61,611 nt of DNA from Roseateles sp. GTDB taxonomy: Bacteria; Pseudomonadota; Gammaproteobacteria; Burkholderiales; Burkholderiaceae_C. Below, one piece after another: positions 1,986 to 44,663 of this stretch. The DNA lies in the NCBI RefSeq assembly GCF_031397715.1, contig NZ_JANNMI010000199.1:1-61611 (forward strand). Direction: 5' to 3'. Made by a program: the position numbers and the translations under genes. The notes beneath the pieces were generated by a model. That model was not told the origin of the DNA and searched no databases. It saw only the letters and a program-made list of their open reading frames with translations. Position 1 is the stretch's first letter, and every line of letters starts with the position of its first letter.

Positions 1986-3863
1986 TCAAGGCGCCACACA
2001 AGCCCGGTTTTTCCCCGTGTGCTTGGCCTCGTACAAAGCCAGATCGGCCCGGTCTAGCGCGGCTTCTAATGTTTCACCCAGCCGGTAATGGGTGACACCG
2101 GCCGAGAAGGTGACGAAGACGTCCTTGCCTTCGTGCATGAACAGGCTGGCCGACAAGGCCCGCTGTAGGCGCTGCAGCACCGCCTGCGCTTCGTCCAGCG
2201 GCGTCGCCGGCAGCATCAGCACAAACTCTTCGCCGCCGTAGCGGGCGACCAGATCACCGGGACGCAATTCCCTGGCGACGCGCTCCGCCAATGACTTCAA
2301 AGCAATGTCGCCGGCACCATGGCCCAGCGTGTCGTTCAAGCGTTTGAAGTTGTCGATATCCAGCAGGGCCAGCGCAATCTTGGCATTCTCATTGCCAGCG
2401 CCGGCCTCGTCGCCAACGCCGCGTTCCAGCTTGGCCTGTTCGGTCGCAAACGCCGCCAGCAGACCGCGCCGGTTGGCGATCTGCGTCAGCTGATCGGTCT
2501 GCACCTCGCTGGACATGCGGCGCAGCTCACCCTCCAACTCCTCGACCCTCTGCCCCATGCTGCTGGCCCGCTCATGCTCCAGACGCAATCGGTCTTGAGT
2601 CTGGCGAACCAGCGACTGCACGCTGCGGCTTTCTTCCACCATCTCGCGCACCACGCCGGCCAGGCTTTCCAGTGAGTCGGCTTTCTCTATCACTTCGGCA
2701 TAGCGGCCGATGCTGTTTTGGAATCGATCGGTGTGTTGGCCCAGTTCACCCAGCTCGGCCAGCATTTGATGGATCAGTGACTTCAGCGAATCGCGCGCCC
2801 GGCTGCGTTCGTCGCGCAGCGCGCGCTGGCGCTCGCGGGTGGCGCCCAACATTTCGGTTACCGAGCGCACGCCGCGGCCGCTCAGGCCTTGCTCCAGCGT
2901 GTCATTCATCGCCTCGCATTGGCCGCGCGCCCAGGAGTCATCCTCGGCCAGATCGACCAGGCTGGCGCTGAGTTCGCGGCAGAGCTGGCCGAGTTCACCG
3001 AACATATGTTGGCGGTGGTCCAGCATGTGGCGGGCGCGCTGGCACAGCGCTTCGATCTGCTCGGCAGCCGCGGGCGTGGCGCCGCTGCGCCGCAGGTCGC
3101 GGTGAGCGGCGGCTAGCTCAGCCATCAAAGCGTCGGCATAGCCTTCCGGGCTCTTCAGCGCATGCTGCACCGTGTCATGCAACGATGCCCCGAGCGGCAG
3201 CCAAGAGTTCGGCGCGGCCATGACAGCTTGTTGCGGCGGCGTTGCCGCCGCGGCCGGGCCCGGCGCTCCGGCCTGATCCAGCTGGCTGGGCGCAAAGTCA
3301 TCGGCCAAAAAGAACTGAGTGGGCGAGCCACCGTCGTCATCATTGGTGTCGACGCTGGCGTCGCTGGTGTCGGAATCCCAGCTGCTGACCAAAGCCCGCA
3401 TGCGCTTGAGCAGGCGCTGTGTGTCGCTGCGGTTGCCCTCCAGCACACGCTGCAGGCCATCTTTCTTCTTGGCCATGGTCCACTGGCGGCCACCGCGTTC
3501 CAGCCCGCGTACCAGGCGTTCGATCACCTGCGCCGTCGCTTCCGCTTGCGCGGCCGGCCCCTCGGTCTGCTGCAAACTTTCAACCTGCCGGATCGCATCC
3601 GCCCAGCGCGCTTCGCGGATGCAAACCTGCAAATCCAGCCGGGTCTGGCTGTTGCTGACGCCCAAGGCCAAGAGCTTGGTCAGCAGGGTCTGAGTGGCTT
3701 CGGGCAGGGCGGCAGGGGCGGCCTCGGTGCCGGACTCGACCGCATAGGCGCGGGCGTAGTTTTCGGGGGTGGGCTCCAGCTGCGCCTGGCCCAACCGAAC
3801 CAGCGCGGCTTTGGCGGTCTGCGCAGCGGGCACGCGAGCCGAGGCGGGTCGACGCTCATCCAT
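1986..3863 (-). CDS. Diguanylate cyclase (GGEEF) with long coiled-coil N-terminus
   Basis: DQLTQIANRR, LLDIDNFKRLNDTLGHGAGD, RPGD I-site five residues before GGEEF. Confidence 0.92.
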   Translation of the reverse strand: MDERRPASARVPAAQTAKAALVRLGQAQLEPTPENYARAYAVESGTEAAPAALPEATQTLLTKLLALGVSNSQTRLDLQVCIREARWADAIRQVESLQQTEGPAAQAEATAQVIERLVRGLERGGRQWTMAKKKDGLQRVLEGNRSDTQRLLKRMRALVSSWDSDTSDASVDTNDDDGGSPTQFFLADDFAPSQLDQAGAPGPAAAATPPQQAVMAAPNSWLPLGASLHDTVQHALKSPEGYADALMAELAAAHRDLRRSGATPAAAEQIEALCQRARHMLDHRQHMFGELGQLCRELSASLVDLAEDDSWARGQCEAMNDTLEQGLSGRGVRSVTEMLGATRERQRALRDERSRARDSLKSLIHQMLAELGELGQHTDRFQNSIGRYAEVIEKADSLESLAGVVREMVEESRSVQSLVRQTQDRLRLEHERASSMGQRVEELEGELRRMSSEVQTDQLTQIANRRGLLAAFATEQAKLERGVGDEAGAGNENAKIALALLDIDNFKRLNDTLGHGAGDIALKSLAERVARELRPGDLVARYGGEEFVLMLPATPLDEAQAVLQRLQRALSASLFMHEGKDVFVTFSAGVTHYRLGETLEAALDRADLALYEAKHTGKNRACVAP

Positions 3864-3883
3864 CGCTAACTCCTATCGAATGC

Positions 3884-6136
3884 TTATCGAATACCGCCGG
3901 TCGGGCGGTGGGCGTCGGACGGGTTGAACTCCAGGCCGGCGCCGATGTCGGCATTGGCCCGAGCGATCCAGGGTGCCTTGCGCGGCAGCACGGTCTGCGC
4001 CAACCACAGCTCGACCTCTTCAGGTGGCAGCGGCTTGCTGAACAAAAAACCCTGCATCAGGCTGCAACCCAGGCGGTGCAAGACGTCCATCTGCCGCATG
4101 GTCTCGACGCCCTCGGCAATCACGCGCAGGCCCATCGCGCGGGCCAAGGCGATGATGGCGGTGACGACGGCCGAGCTTTGCGGCGTGATGCCGAGATCGC
4201 GCACAAAGCTACGGTCGATCTTGACTTCGGAGATCGGCAGCGTGGTCAGATAGGCCAGCGAGGAATAGCCGGTGCCGAAGTCGTCAATCGAAATCTCCAC
4301 ACCGACCTCGTTCAAACGATGCAGCGCGGGGATGACATTTTGCAAATCCTTCATCAAGCTGTTCTCGGTGATCTCCAGCTGGATCGCCCGGTGCGGCACG
4401 CCGTAAGCGCTGACGCATTGATGAATATGCTCGACCAGGTCGGAGCGCTCGAACATGCGGCTGGGCAGGTTGACGGCGATCGAGTCGGAGAAGCCGAAGT
4501 TCAGCTGCCAGACCTTGGCCTGCCTGGCGGCCTCTTTGAGCGCCCATTCGGACAGCGGCACGATCAAGCCGGTTTCTTCGGCCAGCGGAATGAAGTCGCC
4601 CGGCGGAATCAGCTTGCCATCGCGCTTCCAACGCATCAGCGCCTCGGCGCCCACCATGCGAGCGCCGCGCACATCGACCTTGGGCTGGTAATGCAGGACG
4701 ATTTCGCCGCGCTCCAGCGCCTTGTGTAGCGCGCTCTCTAGCTCCAGCTTCGCGCGCCCGCGCCCGGCCAGCTGCGGGGTGTAGAGCGCCGAAGCATTGC
4801 GCCCTTGCGACTTCACCGCATACATGGCGACGTCGGAATTGCGCAGCAGGTCGGCCATGGTCTGGCCGTCGCGCGGATAGAGCGCGATGCCGATGCTGGC
4901 GGTCACAAAGCATTCCTGGCCGGACAGAAAAATCGGCTCCCGCAAGGCCTCCAGCACCCGATCGGCGACGCGTTCGGCATCGCTTTCATCGGCCACCTCG
5001 GGCAGCAGCGCCACAAACTCATCGCCGCCGAGCCGACCGACCGCCTCCAGCGTGCGGTGCGAGCGTCCGCCTATGGTCTCCAGCATGCCCTCCATCACTT
5101 GGTCGGAGTGCCTGACGCAAGCGCGCAGACGCCGCCCCACTTCCACCAGCAACTCATCGCCGGCGGCATGTCCGAGGGTGTCGTTGATGATCTTGAAACG
5201 ATCGAGGTCGATCAGCAGCAAGCCCACCTCGTGGCCGCCGCGCCGTGCTTGCTCGATCGCCCGTTCAACCCGCCAGATCAGCTGGCGCCGATTGGGCAGG
5301 CCGGTCAAAGCATCAAAATGCGCGAGCTGGCGAATTCTGTCTTCGGCTTGCCGCCGGTCGGTGACGTCTTGCATCACCCCGGTATAGCCATTGGCATTGC
5401 CGAGCTCGTTGAATTCAGGCTCGGCCTCGATATGAACCACCCGCTGGCGGCCGTCCAGCAAAGTGACGGTCAGGTCGGTCACCAGCACCGAGTTGTGGGC
5501 CATCACGTCACGCAGCAGGCGCAGGAACAGGGCGCGTTCCTCATGCGGCACCATGCGCATCACGCCGATGAAGTCCAGGCCTTCGTGGGGGCCGCGGCTG
5601 AACACGCGCAAGGCTTCGGCGGCGAGCGTGAAGCCGCCACCGGCATGCCATTCGAAACTGCCCATCCGGGCCAAGTCCTGCGCACGCGCAAGCTTAGCCT
5701 TGCTGCGCTCCAACTCAATGCGGGTGCGCGAGGAGCGCAGCAGATAGCGCAGCCGTCCGGCCAGCAAGCTCCACTGCGTCGATTTGACGAAAAAATCGGT
5801 GGCGCCGACCTGGTAGGCATGGTTGATCGAGGCGTCGTCGTCGAGCCCGGTCAGCATCAGCACGGGGGTTGATTCGAAACCGGGCTTTTCGCGCAGCAGC
5901 TTGCAGGTTTCGAAGCCATCGAGCTCGGGCATCATCGCGTCCAGCACGATCATGTCGGGCGACATGGCCGCCATCAGGTTCAGCGCGTCCTTGCCGCTGC
6001 GCGCTTCGGTGATCTCAAAGCCGCGGCCGCGCAAGGCAGCCGCGGTCAGTAGCAGATTAACCTCGTCGTCATCGACAAGGAGCACTTTTGGCTGCTCTGG
6101 CAAATCGTCTTCTAGTTGAGGCGGGGCGGCGTTCAT
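3884..6136 (-). CDS. REC-PAS-GGDEF-EAL c-di-GMP enzyme
   Basis: N-terminal receiver (VLLVDDD...VLDAMMP...FFVK), PAS/PAC, RLGGDEF, AEALMRW and IDDFGTGYSSL all intact. Confidence 0.93.
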   Translation of the reverse strand: MNAAPPQLEDDLPEQPKVLLVDDDEVNLLLTAAALRGRGFEITEARSGKDALNLMAAMSPDMIVLDAMMPELDGFETCKLLREKPGFESTPVLMLTGLDDDASINHAYQVGATDFFVKSTQWSLLAGRLRYLLRSSRTRIELERSKAKLARAQDLARMGSFEWHAGGGFTLAAEALRVFSRGPHEGLDFIGVMRMVPHEERALFLRLLRDVMAHNSVLVTDLTVTLLDGRQRVVHIEAEPEFNELGNANGYTGVMQDVTDRRQAEDRIRQLAHFDALTGLPNRRQLIWRVERAIEQARRGGHEVGLLLIDLDRFKIINDTLGHAAGDELLVEVGRRLRACVRHSDQVMEGMLETIGGRSHRTLEAVGRLGGDEFVALLPEVADESDAERVADRVLEALREPIFLSGQECFVTASIGIALYPRDGQTMADLLRNSDVAMYAVKSQGRNASALYTPQLAGRGRAKLELESALHKALERGEIVLHYQPKVDVRGARMVGAEALMRWKRDGKLIPPGDFIPLAEETGLIVPLSEWALKEAARQAKVWQLNFGFSDSIAVNLPSRMFERSDLVEHIHQCVSAYGVPHRAIQLEITENSLMKDLQNVIPALHRLNEVGVEISIDDFGTGYSSLAYLTTLPISEVKIDRSFVRDLGITPQSSAVVTAIIALARAMGLRVIAEGVETMRQMDVLHRLGCSLMQGFLFSKPLPPEEVELWLAQTVLPRKAPWIARANADIGAGLEFNPSDAHRPTGGIR

Positions 6137-39034: not shown

Positions 39035-40059
39035 TGGGGTCGAGCGCCGGGCCGCCCCAAGCCGACCCGCATCCCCTCGGGGGATCGCCCGCCGTACCCG
39101 GTGGGCGAGGGGGCATCCTTCTGGCTCCGATGGAGGGCTTGCTCGACCACATGCTGCGCGATGTGCTGACGCGCGTCGGCGGCATTGACCGCTGCGTGTC
39201 CGAATTCATCCGCATCACCGACCGCTTGATGCCTAACCGCGTCTTCACCCGCATCGTGCCCGAGCTGCTGAACGGCGGGCTGACGCCGGCCGGCGTGCCG
39301 GTGCGCGCGCAATTGCTGGGGTCTGACCCCGTCTGTATGGCCGAGAACGCGGCCAAGTTGGCGGCGCTCAAGCCGGCCGGTATTGACCTGAATTTTGGTT
39401 GCCCGGCCAAGAGCGTCAATCGGCACCGGGGCGGCGCAGTGCTGTTGGATGAGCCCGAGTTGATTCTGCAAATCGTCGGCGCGGTGAAGCGCGCGATGCC
39501 CGTCGGCATGCCGCTGTCGGCCAAGATGCGGCTGGGCTATATGGACGATTCGCGCACGCTGGAATGCGCGCAGGCGATGGTGGCCGGCGGTGCCGAGGAG
39601 CTGGTGATTCATGCCCGCACCAAGGCCGACGGCTACAAGCCTCCCGCCTACTGGGACCGCATCAACGCGGTGCGGACAATGGTGGCGGTGCCGGTCGTGG
39701 CCAACGGCGAGGTCTGGAACGCCGCCGATGCGCAGGCCTGTTTGGATCAGTCCGGCTGCACGGCCCTGATGCTGGGCCGCGGCATGGTCGCCAATCCGGG
39801 CCTGGCGCTGGCGATCTGCGCGCCCGGCACGGCCGCTTTGAGCTGGCAAGCCATGCTGCCGCTGATGCAGCTGTTCTGGGGCCAGGTGATGATTCACATG
39901 CCGGCCAAGCACCAAGCCGGCCGGCTCAAACAGTGGTTGCACTATTTGCGCCGGCATTACCCGCAGGCCGAGGAGGCTTATCTGCGGGTGCGCACGATTA
40001 ACTCGCCACTTGAGCTGCATCTGCAGCTGTTTGGCAGACCCGCGGAGGCCATGCCATGA
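39031..40059 (+). CDS. dusC: tRNA-dihydrouridine synthase C
   Basis: LLAPMEG, DLNFGCP, HARTKADGYKPPAYW, GRLKQWL. Confidence 0.9.
   Translation: MMGSSAGPPQADPHPLGGSPAVPGGRGGILLAPMEGLLDHMLRDVLTRVGGIDRCVSEFIRITDRLMPNRVFTRIVPELLNGGLTPAGVPVRAQLLGSDPVCMAENAAKLAALKPAGIDLNFGCPAKSVNRHRGGAVLLDEPELILQIVGAVKRAMPVGMPLSAKMRLGYMDDSRTLECAQAMVAGGAEELVIHARTKADGYKPPAYWDRINAVRTMVAVPVVANGEVWNAADAQACLDQSGCTALMLGRGMVANPGLALAICAPGTAALSWQAMLPLMQLFWGQVMIHMPAKHQAGRLKQWLHYLRRHYPQAEEAYLRVRTINSPLELHLQLFGRPAEAMP
39045..39114 (+). repeat. Palindromic REP-like element inside the dusC 5' end
   Basis: Head CGCCGGGCCGCCCCAAG shared with 49450; hairpins ATCCCC-TCG-GGGGAT and TCGCCCGCCG-TACC-CGGTGGGCGA; ends GGGGGC. Confidence 0.72.
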
Positions 40060-40439
40060 AACCCACTAAAACCTTGTCGGGCCTGGGCGCGCTCAGCGGC
40101 CTGGTCTATTCCACCGAGACAGGGCGCACTTGCCCGGAATGCCGCCAGGCCAAGGCCGACTGCCGCTGTGGCCGGCCGGTCCCGCCTAAGGGCGACGGCG
40201 TCGTGCGGGTGTCGCGCGAGACCAAGGGTCGGGCCGGCAAGGGCGTCACCTTGGTCAAGGGCGTGCAATTGGACGAGGCCGGCTTGGTCGCGCTGGGCAA
40301 GGTCTTGAAGACCGCCTGCGGCTCCGGCGGCACGGTCAAGGACGGCGTGATCGAGGTGCAGGGCGACCATTGCGAGCGGGTGGTCGAGCTGCTGAAGAAG
40401 ACGCAGCCGGGCTGGACGATCAAGCGGGCGGGGGGCTGA
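40056..40439 (+). CDS. yciH: Translation initiation factor SUI1-like protein
   Basis: RETKGRAGKGVT, LKTACGSGGTVKDGVIEVQGDH. Confidence 0.92.
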   Translation: MKPTKTLSGLGALSGLVYSTETGRTCPECRQAKADCRCGRPVPPKGDGVVRVSRETKGRAGKGVTLVKGVQLDEAGLVALGKVLKTACGSGGTVKDGVIEVQGDHCERVVELLKKTQPGWTIKRAGG

Positions 40440-40489
40440 GGACGGTTCAAAACGAGAGTCGCCCGGAGAAATTGCCCGACACAGGCTGG

Positions 40490-41128
40490 TCAGCGGCCTG
40501 GACTTTGCGGCGTCATCATGTGCTTGATAGCAGTGGAGAACGGTAGTTGGGCTGTAGCCTGGAGTTCCTCTTGCAGCAGCGGCAGCCACTCGTCCTCGCT
40601 GAACTGATGTGACAGCTCGGCAAAGTACTCGGCGGTTTGTTTGTAGCCTACGAGTTCTGTGAATCGAATTTGCCTCAATGGCCCGTTGAGATTGAACAGA
40701 CGAATAGTTTCAGCGGCACGGTGGTCGCTTTTGTCTGAGAGGCCATTTTTTGGGCTAACCGTGCCATCTGGCGAGAATAGAAGATAGTCCTCAGGGTCTT
40801 CCTCGTCTGGTTTTATCAGGTCGGCTGGCGCATATGGTTCAGCACAATCTTTGTGCCTGCCACAACTACAACTTCGGTTGCAGGAGCCAAATAGGTTTGA
40901 CCAAACAAAAGTGACAGTGGGGTCGCGTCCCTTCTGGCGGAAGTGCTCGATGTGCCTGCGGTCTGGAGCAATCCGCGCTTCGCAGTATGCGCAACGGTCA
41001 CCTTGCATCGCTAGCAGTTCGTCCCAGATCGAGTTTTTGTCGAATTGACTCACCTCTGACCAATTGTTCAACCCATGGCGATATCCGCGTAGGCAAGTCG
41101 GCGGTTCGCCTCGATGCAGCTTATGCAT
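40490..41128 (-). CDS. ptuB: PtuB-type HNH endonuclease (Septu / retron Ec78-type effector)
   Basis: CAYCE, HIEHF, WSNLFGSC...CGRHKD, AAETIRLFNLN; 8-bp overlap with upstream ATPase. Confidence 0.82.
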   Translation of the reverse strand: MHKLHRGEPPTCLRGYRHGLNNWSEVSQFDKNSIWDELLAMQGDRCAYCEARIAPDRRHIEHFRQKGRDPTVTFVWSNLFGSCNRSCSCGRHKDCAEPYAPADLIKPDEEDPEDYLLFSPDGTVSPKNGLSDKSDHRAAETIRLFNLNGPLRQIRFTELVGYKQTAEYFAELSHQFSEDEWLPLLQEELQATAQLPFSTAIKHMMTPQSPGR

Positions 41129-42545
41129 TCGGCGATTCACCAATGGATAGCGGAAGTTTTTGTTTGAATACTTGCAGTCGAATCATTCGGGCGCAATCTC
41201 GAATGACGGGATGTTCGGCGCCGAAATGGGCATCGAGTTTGGCCCTCAAAGCCCGACCTTCTTCGCTTTCATGTAGATTTTGCTGAATAAGCGCGTGATA
41301 GCTGGAAAGCTTGCGTGCCTCTGGAACATCAGGAACAGGATCGACTCCCATAATTTGAGCGAGGAGGTCCGCGCTTGAGACTCCGCGTGTTTGGATCTGA
41401 ATCGGTTCAACGACTGTGGTCGTATGGTGCGATTCAGGGTCTGTGAACTGTCGCAGCTTCCGGATGCAGGCAGCGTCGACGCTGGTCAATACCTGTGGGC
41501 TGTGGGTGGTGACGATGAACTGCAGTTCCGGAAAGGCGGTCGTTAGGCACTGCATTACGACTTGTTGCCATTCTGGATGTAGGTGCAGTTCGACTTCGTC
41601 GATCAGCACAATGCCGGCGGTTTCCTTGGCAGCCCTATTACCCTTGTGTGGATTCAGTTTGGTAGCGCGAAAAGCGATGTCGGCAACCATGGCAATCATA
41701 TTGCGAATGCCATCACTAAGCAGGGAAACAGGCAGTTCCCCATGCAATTCATGGTGTGCCACAAGTTCTTCACGGGCAAGTGAATAGGAAAGTTCGCCCC
41801 AGCCCGCAGGCGCAAGGCAGGTGTTGACGGCCTCAGCTACCGATTCAAGGTAATGGTCGAACTCTGTGGGCTCAAAGCGGCGACCGGTTTTGCTGGCTTC
41901 TAACTGCCCCTTGAATGCGTTGGTGCTCCAGTACCGAAACCAGGCCTCGAAGATTTTGTAACTGGAACCCGGATCTAGGCAGTCGGTATACCCAATCGTT
42001 CTAGAAGTTCGTGGTAGCTTGCCCTCCATCAGTTTCTTTTGTTGCCACAAGCGACTTGTGCCGTAGTAGGCCAGCAAGGGCAGCATGACGTCGGTTCCAG
42101 GCGTTCTAACTGCAACTTGCTGGCGTTTGCCGAAGTCGATCAGCTCCTTTGCATCTTTGATGGTGGTCTTTGCCTTGGTCGGGCCAGCTAGGCTGCGCCT
42201 CCATGTGGCATTGGAGGGTACTTCACCGAGTAGCTCAAGCAAAGTGCCGGGTATGTGCCCAGTGGCCTCTAAGCGAATACCTTTGGGTGCGAATTCCATT
42301 TCATTGCTGGCAGTATCCCGGACTGCGGTAAGTCGAATGTCGCTTGGCTTAAAGCTTTTCCCGATACTTTCATCAAACGCACCGACATACGGGCCGAAAG
42401 CGACTGCAATGGCGTCCAGAATCGATGTCTTGCCAGCTCCATTCGATGCGACGAGAACGGTTACCCGTGCGTGGAAGTCGAGATCAATTGCTTCAAAACA
42501 GCGATAGTCTCGCAGCCTTAATTTTTGTATGTTCAGGTTCGGCAT
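41121..42545 (-). CDS. ptuA: PtuA-type ABC/AAA ATPase (Septu / retron Ec78-type effector)
   Basis: Walker A ASNGAGKTS, YYGTSRLW, signature LSDG, Walker B LIDEVELHLHPEWQ, H-loop VTTHSPQV; AT-richer codon usage. Confidence 0.85.
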   Translation of the reverse strand: MPNLNIQKLRLRDYRCFEAIDLDFHARVTVLVASNGAGKTSILDAIAVAFGPYVGAFDESIGKSFKPSDIRLTAVRDTASNEMEFAPKGIRLEATGHIPGTLLELLGEVPSNATWRRSLAGPTKAKTTIKDAKELIDFGKRQQVAVRTPGTDVMLPLLAYYGTSRLWQQKKLMEGKLPRTSRTIGYTDCLDPGSSYKIFEAWFRYWSTNAFKGQLEASKTGRRFEPTEFDHYLESVAEAVNTCLAPAGWGELSYSLAREELVAHHELHGELPVSLLSDGIRNMIAMVADIAFRATKLNPHKGNRAAKETAGIVLIDEVELHLHPEWQQVVMQCLTTAFPELQFIVTTHSPQVLTSVDAACIRKLRQFTDPESHHTTTVVEPIQIQTRGVSSADLLAQIMGVDPVPDVPEARKLSSYHALIQQNLHESEEGRALRAKLDAHFGAEHPVIRDCARMIRLQVFKQKLPLSIGESPNA

Positions 42546-42809
42546 AGGTTTTGTTGCTCGGTTTATATTCGCGTGCAATTTCAAATCTTATCTATTCGGC
42601 AGTAGAAGTGGACCTGTTTTACTTCGGCGAGCAGAGCATTCGTAATTGGAGACACGAATTGGTCAGGGTCCAGTTAGTGAAGGATCTTACGTGCATGACG
42701 TGAGAGGTGGAGATAGCAAACCGGCGAACGATGGCATGCGTCGGAGTCCTCGAAGGGCAGCGGAGGTGCCGCGGCAGTTCATTGCGCTGCAGCCTGGGAT
42801 AATCAAGCC

Positions 42810-44234
<1,425 letters not shown>

Positions 44235-44411
44235 TCTCGCCAAGGAGCCACCAGGTTTTCGTGACAAATTGGTGTCAGCGAAAGTCCTAGTCCACCGCAA
44301 GTGTTCATCCGACGTTATTTTGAGACGTATGCACATGGTCTTCCCCTCAGAAGGGGTCTAGTCTTCAGACAGGCAGAACTAGATCATGGTGACAGCTCAG
44401 GAGTAAACAAG

Positions 44412-44663
44412 ATGGACACCCAATTTATGCAAAGCAGTAGCAGGCAAAACCCACCCGCACCCATGCCGCCGGACACCGAGCAGTTCGAGTTGCGTTTCCA
44501 ATCGCTGTTCCACAGCGGCAAGGCCTTGGCCTTCCCCTGCGATGCACAGGGCGATGTATTGATGGACGTGCTCAGCGCCAGGGCGCTGGATAACTATCTG
44601 TTCGCCCGCGCCGTGGTCGGCCATGAATACGCGAACCCGGTCGTGCTGGTTCGCGAGGACTGA
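44412..44663 (+). CDS. Small hypothetical protein
   Basis: AGGAG RBS before ATG; genome-like codon usage; FELRFQSLF...AFPCDAQG...NYLFARAVVG. Confidence 0.7.
   Translation: MDTQFMQSSSRQNPPAPMPPDTEQFELRFQSLFHSGKALAFPCDAQGDVLMDVLSARALDNYLFARAVVGHEYANPVVLVRED

What the first reader, a model, noticed from the sequence alone, without database searches (positions are those of the whole stretch)
40440..42760. Stand-alone PtuAB (Septu / retron-Ec78-type) defence island lacking a reverse transcriptase
Seen: an AT-richer two-gene cassette with atypical codons sits antisense between yciH and dbpA; a 474-aa ABC-type ATPase overlaps a 212-aa HNH nuclease by 8 bp; only 264 bp separate the ATPase start from dbpA, so there is no RT, integrase or transposase. 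Established: PtuAB forms the Septu anti-phage complex, and in type I-A retrons (Ec78, Ec83, Vc95) it is held inactive by RT-msDNA. By eye both proteins, especially the HNH N-terminus (CLxxYxHGxxNW) and the ATPase C-terminal domain, resemble the retron-associated clade. Inference: either a retron effector that became RT-independent, one neutralised in trans, or a distinct Septu lineage with another control mechanism. This is the best candidate for a new system variant here.
Basis: partly seen in the sequence, partly recalled or inferred. Interest (0 to 1): 0.75.

Follow-up and report, generated by a model that had tools for sequence, protein, structure and literature searches.

The report
Ordinary stand-alone Septu defence insertion
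Two intact genes inserted between two housekeeping genes encode an ordinary stand-alone Septu pair (an ATPase and a nuclease) that likely defends the cell against phages; having no reverse transcriptase is the normal state for this family, so this is a new copy of a known system.

Summary
The cassette is real: ptuA (474 aa) and ptuB (212 aa) overlap by 8 bp in a 2,354-bp insertion (53% GC, genome 63%) that the nearest relative lacks. The 'retron effector without its RT' reading fails. PtuA is closest to E. coli stand-alone Septu PtuA (8EE4, 279 bits; retron PtuAs 161 or less). It lacks the retron N-terminal extension and helical flap, carries Septu-type Q-loop and signature residues, and nests among RT-less PtuAs in a tree. 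No RT was found in the genome (96% complete), and no ncRNA signal upstream. Of the 80 nearest PtuB loci, 40 are RT-less, 4 have an RT and 36 are too short to call. Only about 7.6% of Septu systems carry an RT (PADLOC paper). Tail and nuclease behave as one cassette that is swapped between ATPase cores, which would explain the published scatter of PtuB across retron and Septu trees. This scan has noted ordinary Septu insertions, and such a swap, on other DNA before. Verdict: new member of a known kind, low interest.

The parts
40440..42793 (.). Horizontally acquired insertion of 2,354 bp, 53% GC, placed directly after the yciH stop codon; no mobility gene; no terminal repeat pair among the repeats listed
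   Evidence: empty site in G002 and 6 other genus members; joint 40439>42794 in run X3; GC; repeats
41121..42545 (-). ptuA, type I Septu ABC/SMC-type ATPase, 474 aa: Walker A K39, Q-loop position G162, signature LSDGIR 276-281, Walker B D316/E317, H348; C-terminal tail (about 385-465) predicted to grip PtuB
40490..41128 (-). ptuB, HNH nuclease of the TIGR02646/NF041761 (Ec78-like) type, 212 aa; C46, C49, H59, H62, N78, C83 and C89 are invariant in 7 aligned homologues
42546..42793 (-). Non-coding leader of the island, presumed to hold the promoter; no Rfam match, no unusual fold, no similarity to 150 other loci
40056..40439 (+). Flanking host gene, SUI1/YciH family (not part of the system)
42810..44234 (+). 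Flanking host gene dbpA, DEAD-box RNA helicase (not part of the system)

Best explanation
This is an intact type I (stand-alone) Septu pair, inserted between yciH and dbpA, that likely protects the population by abortive infection. Shown here: the two genes, the insertion, intact nucleotide-binding and HNH motifs, the Septu-type ATPase core and the Ec78-type nuclease. Inferred from E. coli Septu: PtuA binds ATP but hydrolyses it weakly or not at all (Gly at the Q-loop site, Ile in place of the retron Gln in the signature), oligomerises (6:2 with PtuB in E. coli) and holds PtuB through its C-terminal tail. A phage protein or a fall in ATP would then release the nuclease, which would cut host nucleic acid and stall the infected cell. 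tRNA is the more likely target, since Ec78 PtuAB and the stand-alone Septu EcB88 both cut tRNA-Tyr; DNA nicking is the alternative. Control would come from PtuA and ATP, not from RT-msDNA.
For: PDB sequence search: 8EE4 279 bits over residues 5-458, retron PtuAs 102-161 bits. AlphaFold model (pLDDT 86.9) has E. coli Septu chains at Foldseek ranks 1-10 (TMq 0.67-0.76, best E 2e-41); retron chains start at rank 12 (best E 2e-30). NF041760 (Ec78 PtuA) gives 290 bits against a cut-off of 500. PADLOC ATPase_I-A gives 290 bits here but 609 for a true retron PtuA. Residue 6 aligns with Ec78 residue 66, so the N-terminal extension is absent. First ATG to Walker A is 32 aa here, 87-92 in 7 of 7 RT-linked loci and 29-43 in 49 of the 54 RT-less loci with an in-frame ATG (11 more had none). 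The flap segment is 65 aa here, 94-113 in 7 of 7 RT-linked and 54-87 in 58 of 58 RT-less rows. In the PtuA tree (79 rows) the RT-linked rows lie on one side of a branch with SH-aLRT 98, and the window sits in a 14-row group with no RT-linked row (support 100). No RT in the genome: Pfam RVT_1 gave 0 matches; a profile from six retron RTs gave a best E of 10 on the genome while scoring 116-586 bits on all 7 RT loci. Literature: PMC12819146, PMC8565338, PMC13096335, bioRxiv 10.1101/2025.05.23.655875.
Against: No experiment on this pair, so defence, toxicity, oligomeric state and target are all borrowed from relatives. PtuB is far closer to retron Ec78 PtuB (177 bits) than to the solved Septu PtuB (24 bits), so the E. 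coli 6:2 architecture and DNA target may not carry over. The genome is a 493-contig assembly (96.4% complete), so an RT on an unassembled piece cannot be excluded. The tree is a quick IQ-TREE run (SH-aLRT only), with long-branch and composition warnings on the RT-linked rows. PADLOC's 'PtuA1' label alone does not separate the types, because a retron PtuA also scores best on a PtuA1 model.
Confidence: 0.92

Rival explanations
1. A type I-A retron effector that lost its RT and ncRNA and became RT-independent.
For: PtuB passes the Ec78 PtuB model. PtuB is 40-53% and the PtuA tail 28-54% identical to the 7 RT-linked systems. In the PtuB tree the window falls in the same 53-row group as the retron PtuBs (support 85).
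Against: The ATPase core is only 25-30% identical to RT-linked PtuAs but 63-77% to close RT-less ones. It is nested among RT-less rows, not inside the RT group. N-terminal extension, flap and signature Gln are all absent. No ncRNA remnant upstream. PtuB is known to be scattered between retron and Septu (PMC12819146, section 9).
Confidence: 0.03
2. PtuAB is neutralised in trans by a retron RT-msDNA encoded elsewhere in the genome.
For: The assembly is 96.4% complete in 493 contigs, so a gene could be missing.
Against: No RT found by Pfam, tblastn or a retron-RT profile. PtuA lacks the surfaces that bind RT and msDNA (PMC12819146 section 8). 40 of 44 callable close loci are RT-less.
Confidence: 0.02
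3. The pair is a silent or decaying passenger with no defence activity.
For: No sigma-70 consensus was found in the region (1.2 expected by chance, so weak).
Against: Both frames are full length with intact motifs and the 8-bp coupling. 63-77% identical PtuA cores occur in unrelated hosts.
Confidence: 0.05

Closest known systems
Type I Septu of E. coli (PtuA/PtuB; PDB 8EE4, 8EE7, 8EEA, 8SUX; Li et al. 2024, known to me only as cited in PMC12819146 and PMC12640716)
   Same: Two-gene ATPase plus HNH operon without RT. PtuA is collinear over residues 5-458 (279 bits; 36-39% identity in Foldseek rows), with no N-terminal extension or flap, Gly at the Q-loop site and a hydrophobic signature residue (Leu there, Ile here).
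   Different: PtuB is a different HNH subtype (24 bits to 8EE7_C), 212 against 243 aa.
Septu EcB88 (PMC13096335)
   Same: Stand-alone PtuAB that needs Walker A/B and HNH residues, aborts infection and cuts tRNA-Tyr. Its H75/N91 spacing matches H62/N78 here (my inference).
   Different: Sequence not compared here; its PtuB subtype is unknown to me.
Type I-A retron Ec78 / Retron-Eco7 (type II Septu; PDB 9NNB, 9VH1, 9KJX)
   Same: PtuB subtype (NF041761; 166-177 bits) and a related PtuA C-terminal tail.
   Different: No RT, no ncRNA; PtuA lacks the roughly 60-aa N-terminal extension, the helical flap and the signature Gln (474 against 550 aa).

Membership tests
Septu type I (stand-alone) | Adjacent co-oriented ptuA (ABC/SMC ATPase) and ptuB (HNH) genes | tested here: met
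   PADLOC PtuA 516 bits, PtuB 287 bits; 8-bp overlap
Septu type I (stand-alone) | No RT gene before ptuA | tested here: met
   264 bp to dbpA, no RT hit
Septu type I (stand-alone) | Short PtuA without retron N-terminal extension and helical flap | tested here: met
Septu type I (stand-alone) | Gly at the Q-loop site (Asn in Ec78) and a hydrophobic residue at the signature Gln361 position | tested here: met
   G162 aligns with Gly in 8EE4 and Asn in retron PtuAs; LSDGIR at 276-281; features taken from bioRxiv 10.1101/2025.05.23.655875 and PMC12819146
Septu type I (stand-alone) | PtuA clusters with retron-independent PtuAs | tested here: met
   (quick tree, SH-aLRT only)
Septu type I (stand-alone) | Longer 'm loop' that blocks msDNA binding | tested here: inconclusive
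   Extra residues against retron PtuAs near positions 70-105, but the loop's coordinates are in a figure I could not see
Septu type I (stand-alone) | 6:2 PtuA:PtuB assembly, ATP-inhibited nuclease, phage protection | not testable with these tools
   needs biochemistry and phage challenge
Retron type I-A (type II Septu) | Retron RT gene directly upstream of ptuA | tested here: not met
   none at the locus, none found in the assembly
Retron type I-A (type II Septu) | Structured msr-msd ncRNA upstream | tested here: not met
   no Rfam match; fold z-score -0.16; no similarity to 150 other loci
Retron type I-A (type II Septu) | PtuA of about 550 aa with N-terminal extension, flap and signature Q/E | tested here: not met
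   474 aa; NF041760 290 bits against cut-off 500
Retron type I-A (type II Septu) | Ec78-type PtuB | tested here: met
   NF041761 186.7 bits against cut-off 150, but not diagnostic: mostly found in RT-less loci

The most novel reading that the evidence does not exclude
Septu diversifies by swapping a cassette made of the PtuA C-terminal tail plus ptuB onto different ATPase cores, with the break just after the H-switch. All four combinations of two cores and two cassettes occur among the loci fetched here, and cores 77% identical carry either an Ec78-type or an Ec83-like nuclease. Type I-A retrons would draw their effectors from the same pool. This locus is then an RT-free host of the Ec78-type nuclease: a natural control for testing whether the target follows the cassette and the trigger follows the core.
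Probability: 0.55. Interest if true: 0.4.

Novelty: new member of a known kind. Interest (0 to 1): 0.15.

Why it matters
As an annotation it is routine: one more horizontally acquired Septu. It warns that an Ec78-like PtuB (NCBIfam names it 'retron Ec78 effector') does not mean a retron. The tail-plus-nuclease swap, if confirmed on a large unbiased set, would explain why PtuB trees mix retron and Septu sequences while PtuA trees do not, and would let trigger and target be tested separately with natural chimeras.

Tried and rejected
RT in trans: Pfam RVT_1 on the genome, 0 matches; tblastn with 6 retron RTs, one hit at E 0.77; profile search, best E 10. Second retron-type ATPase in the genome: only short Walker-region matches. 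Hidden ncRNA in the leader: no Rfam match, fold no better than shuffles, no conservation. The 66-aa ORF 42619-42819 matches no family and overlaps the dbpA start; treated as spurious. Terminal repeats: no repeat pair at the two ends among those listed (20 of 29 direct families and 25 of 43 inverted pairs were shown). Defence hotspot: 20 of the 26 relatives with a yciH match were fetched and 19 could be read; 7 are empty (13-78 bp) and 12 hold 2 to more than 7 kb at host-like GC (0.62-0.70) that look by eye like receptor and sensor-kinase genes (not scanned against families); none matched ptuA or ptuB, so the site is variable but not shown to be a defence hotspot. Named phage genomes: no PtuB match; 2 loci in viral contigs. 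Expression: no RNA holder listed. The careful PtuA tree did not finish, so the quick tree was used. The second-look structural alignment did not run. No complex prediction was made, since PtuA-PtuB binding would pass by likeness to solved structures. Literature searches for an effector or nuclease swap in Septu gave no paper stating it in the listings or passages I read; the exact phrases 'effector exchange' and 'nuclease swap' had 0 occurrences in the listed papers. Figures and supplements were not seen, and the supplementary trees of PMC12819146 and PMC12640716 may bear on this.

Full report
Observation. The window holds two antisense genes between a SUI1/YciH-family gene (40056-40439) and dbpA (42810-44234): an ATPase at 41121-42545 (474 aa) and an HNH protein at 40490-41128 (212 aa), overlapping by 8 bp, with 264 bp between the ATPase start and dbpA. 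The island is 53% GC in a 63% GC genome; GC3 is 0.55-0.57 against 0.83-0.90 in four neighbours. The nearest relative examined (G002, 91-93% DNA identity in the flanks) aligns up to 40439 and from 42794 with only 38 bp between the genes. I fetched 20 of the 26 relatives with a yciH match; 19 could be read, 7 are empty, 12 carry other genes at host-like GC, and none matches ptuA or ptuB. Contigs from runs X1 (possibly the source) and X2 cross both junctions, and a related strain's contig in X3 skips exactly 40440-42793 (all four runs are from one study). So this is a real 2,354-bp insertion with no mobility gene.

Identity of the ATPase. Among solved proteins the best match is the stand-alone E. 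coli Septu PtuA (8EE4, 279 bits, residues 5-458); retron PtuAs score 102-161 bits, mostly over the C-terminal half. An AlphaFold model (45 sequences, pLDDT 86.9) puts E. coli Septu chains at Foldseek ranks 1-10 and retron chains from rank 12. The Ec78 PtuA model gives 290 bits against a cut-off of 500. PADLOC's best model is a 443-position PtuA (516 bits) and ATPase_I-A gives 290, whereas a true retron PtuA gives 609 on ATPase_I-A; that same retron protein scores best on another 'PtuA1' model, so the label alone is not diagnostic. PMC12819146 (I read the outline, search passages, section 9 and part 1 of 2 of section 8; no figures) names what retron PtuA gained: an N-terminal extension that binds RT, a helical flap and basic loops that hold msDNA, and Gln361 in the signature where Septu has Leu. 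Here residue 6 aligns with Ec78 residue 66, the flap is missing and the signature is LSDGIR. bioRxiv 10.1101/2025.05.23.655875 (passages) says type I Septu has Gly where Ec78 has Asn at the Q-loop site; this protein has G162 there.

Context of relatives. I gathered 111 loci plus the window from GTDB genomes, metagenomes, viral contigs and plasmids. Of the 112, 65 had at least 1.3 kb upstream of ptuA and no RT, 7 had an RT and 40 were too short or lacked a callable PtuA (duplicates not removed). Of the best 80 of 328 metagenomic PtuB relatives, 40 were RT-less, 4 RT-linked and 36 uncallable. All 7 RT-linked PtuAs have 87-92 aa from the first ATG to Walker A and Q or E in the signature; the window has 32 aa and Ile, like 49 of 54 RT-less loci with an in-frame ATG (29-43 aa). 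Six of the 65 RT-less loci also have Q or E, so that residue alone does not sort them. The flap segment is 94-113 aa in RT-linked and 54-87 aa in RT-less rows, 65 here. The PtuA tree used 79 rows (duplicates, truncated, off-length and weak rows left out; N-terminal extensions cut off): RT-linked rows form one side of a branch with SH-aLRT 98, and the window lies in a 14-row group without any RT-linked row (support 100), nearest to Nitrosomonas and unclassified proteobacterial PtuAs at 75-76% identity. It is a quick tree with long-branch and composition warnings on the RT rows.

No RT or ncRNA. Pfam RVT_1 found nothing in the genome (96.4% complete, 493 contigs). Six retron RTs gave one tblastn hit at E 0.77, and their profile gave a best E of 10 on the genome while recovering all 7 RT loci. 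The 250-nt leader has no Rfam match, folds no better than shuffles (z -0.16) and resembles none of 150 other loci. PMC8565338 (passages) reports that about 7.6% of Septu systems are preceded by an RT, so lacking one is the rule.

PtuB passes the Ec78 PtuB model and scores 177 bits on Ec78 PtuB against 24 on E. coli Septu PtuB. In a 66-row PtuB tree the RT label needs two changes and the window sits in a 45-row RT-less group inside a 53-row group that also holds the retron PtuBs. PMC12819146 already reports that PtuB is scattered between retron and Septu while PtuA clusters. My data suggest why. Across 78 loci, identity of the PtuA tail tracks PtuB (Spearman 0.81; 0.77 given the core) far better than the core does (0.42; 0.12 given the tail). 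These 3,003 pairs are not independent and most loci were chosen by PtuB likeness, so the figures are descriptive. The clearer sign is a four-way set, given as core/tail/PtuB identity: window-L022 77/28/24%, L022-L154 42/79/66%, L154-L151 68/23/21%, window-L151 43/70/49%. Identity to L022 and L021 drops abruptly after about residue 365. L022's nuclease is nearest to Ec83 PtuB (106 bits). Among 89 pairs with cores at least 70% identical, 16 have tails under 40% and the same 16 have PtuBs under 35%, but all involve just two loci (L021, L022); among 210 pairs with tails at least 70% identical, 107 have cores under 45% and none has PtuB under 45%. The tail is the part that grips the nuclease in solved structures (PMC12819146; PMC12475279, passages). 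Co-evolution of an interface could give the correlation, but not easily the sharp break between close cores.

Mechanism. Shown: genes, insertion, motifs (K39, D316/E317, H348; C46/C49, H59, H62, N78) and the mosaic. Inferred from E. coli Septu as described in PMC12819146, PMC12640716 (passages) and the bioRxiv paper: ATP-bound PtuA oligomers hold PtuB, and phage proteins or a fall in ATP release the nuclease. PMC13096335 (outline, introduction, part 1 of 4 of the results) shows that a stand-alone Septu needs Walker A/B and HNH residues, aborts infection and cuts tRNA-Tyr, as Ec78 does; the genome has a tRNA-Tyr(GTA). I therefore favour tRNA cleavage over DNA nicking, untested. Li et al. 2024 was not read; it is known to me only through these citations.

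Verdict. A new member of type I Septu (0.92). A retron effector that lost its RT (0.03), neutralisation in trans (0.02) or a dead passenger (0.05) are unlikely. Interest 0.15. The cassette-swap reading is the only part that might be new; I did not find it stated in four literature searches, but supplementary trees were not seen.

Noticed in passing
L097:878-2779 (+), metagenome contig Ga0208396_102985: An RT-less Septu PtuA of 633 aa carries an N-terminal translation-initiation-factor-2 piece (Pfam IF2_N and IF2_assoc, both above cut-off), followed by an Ec78-type ptuB. A 92% identical full-length protein (P0003, 3 member sequences) exists elsewhere, and none of the other 119 listed hits has the domain. 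Possibly a captured host-protein decoy or sensor; rare and untested.
   Followed up: partly
L139 (G436:C2:113500-121500), ORF 3721-5955 (-): A 745-codon frame with N-terminal TPR repeats fused to a PtuA-type ATPase, beside a ptuB-like gene: another Septu with an added putative sensor domain. The same genome has a second, ordinary Septu (L138).
   Followed up: partly
L021, L022, L019, L154, L151: Close PtuA cores carry different tail-plus-nuclease cassettes (about 195-aa, 270-aa Ec83-like and 212-aa Ec78-like types); all four combinations of two cores and two cassettes occur.
   Followed up: yes
window 42056: Contigs from runs X1 and X3 read C instead of T here, making PtuA codon 164 Gly instead of Ser; the four close relatives aligned have Gly. 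The window's Ser may be a strain variant or an assembly error.
   Followed up: partly
yciH-dbpA interval in genus relatives (L027-L045): The interval is variable: empty in 7 of 19, about 2 kb in 6, about 5-5.6 kb in 5 and over 7 kb in 1, with host-GC genes that look by eye like TonB-receptor and sensor-kinase sets. The motif GGGATAAT just before dbpA is kept in all 18 where dbpA was reached.
   Followed up: partly
L019:3120-6062 and L054: Septu pairs sit directly beside DUF1156 methylase genes, with a helicase-related gene upstream in L054, which fits cargo in larger defence operons.
   Followed up: no
window 44301-44663 (+): A 120-codon ORF between dbpA and glnS with no Pfam or NCBIfam match but conserved, at least in part, in 14 of the 20 genus loci.
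   Followed up: no
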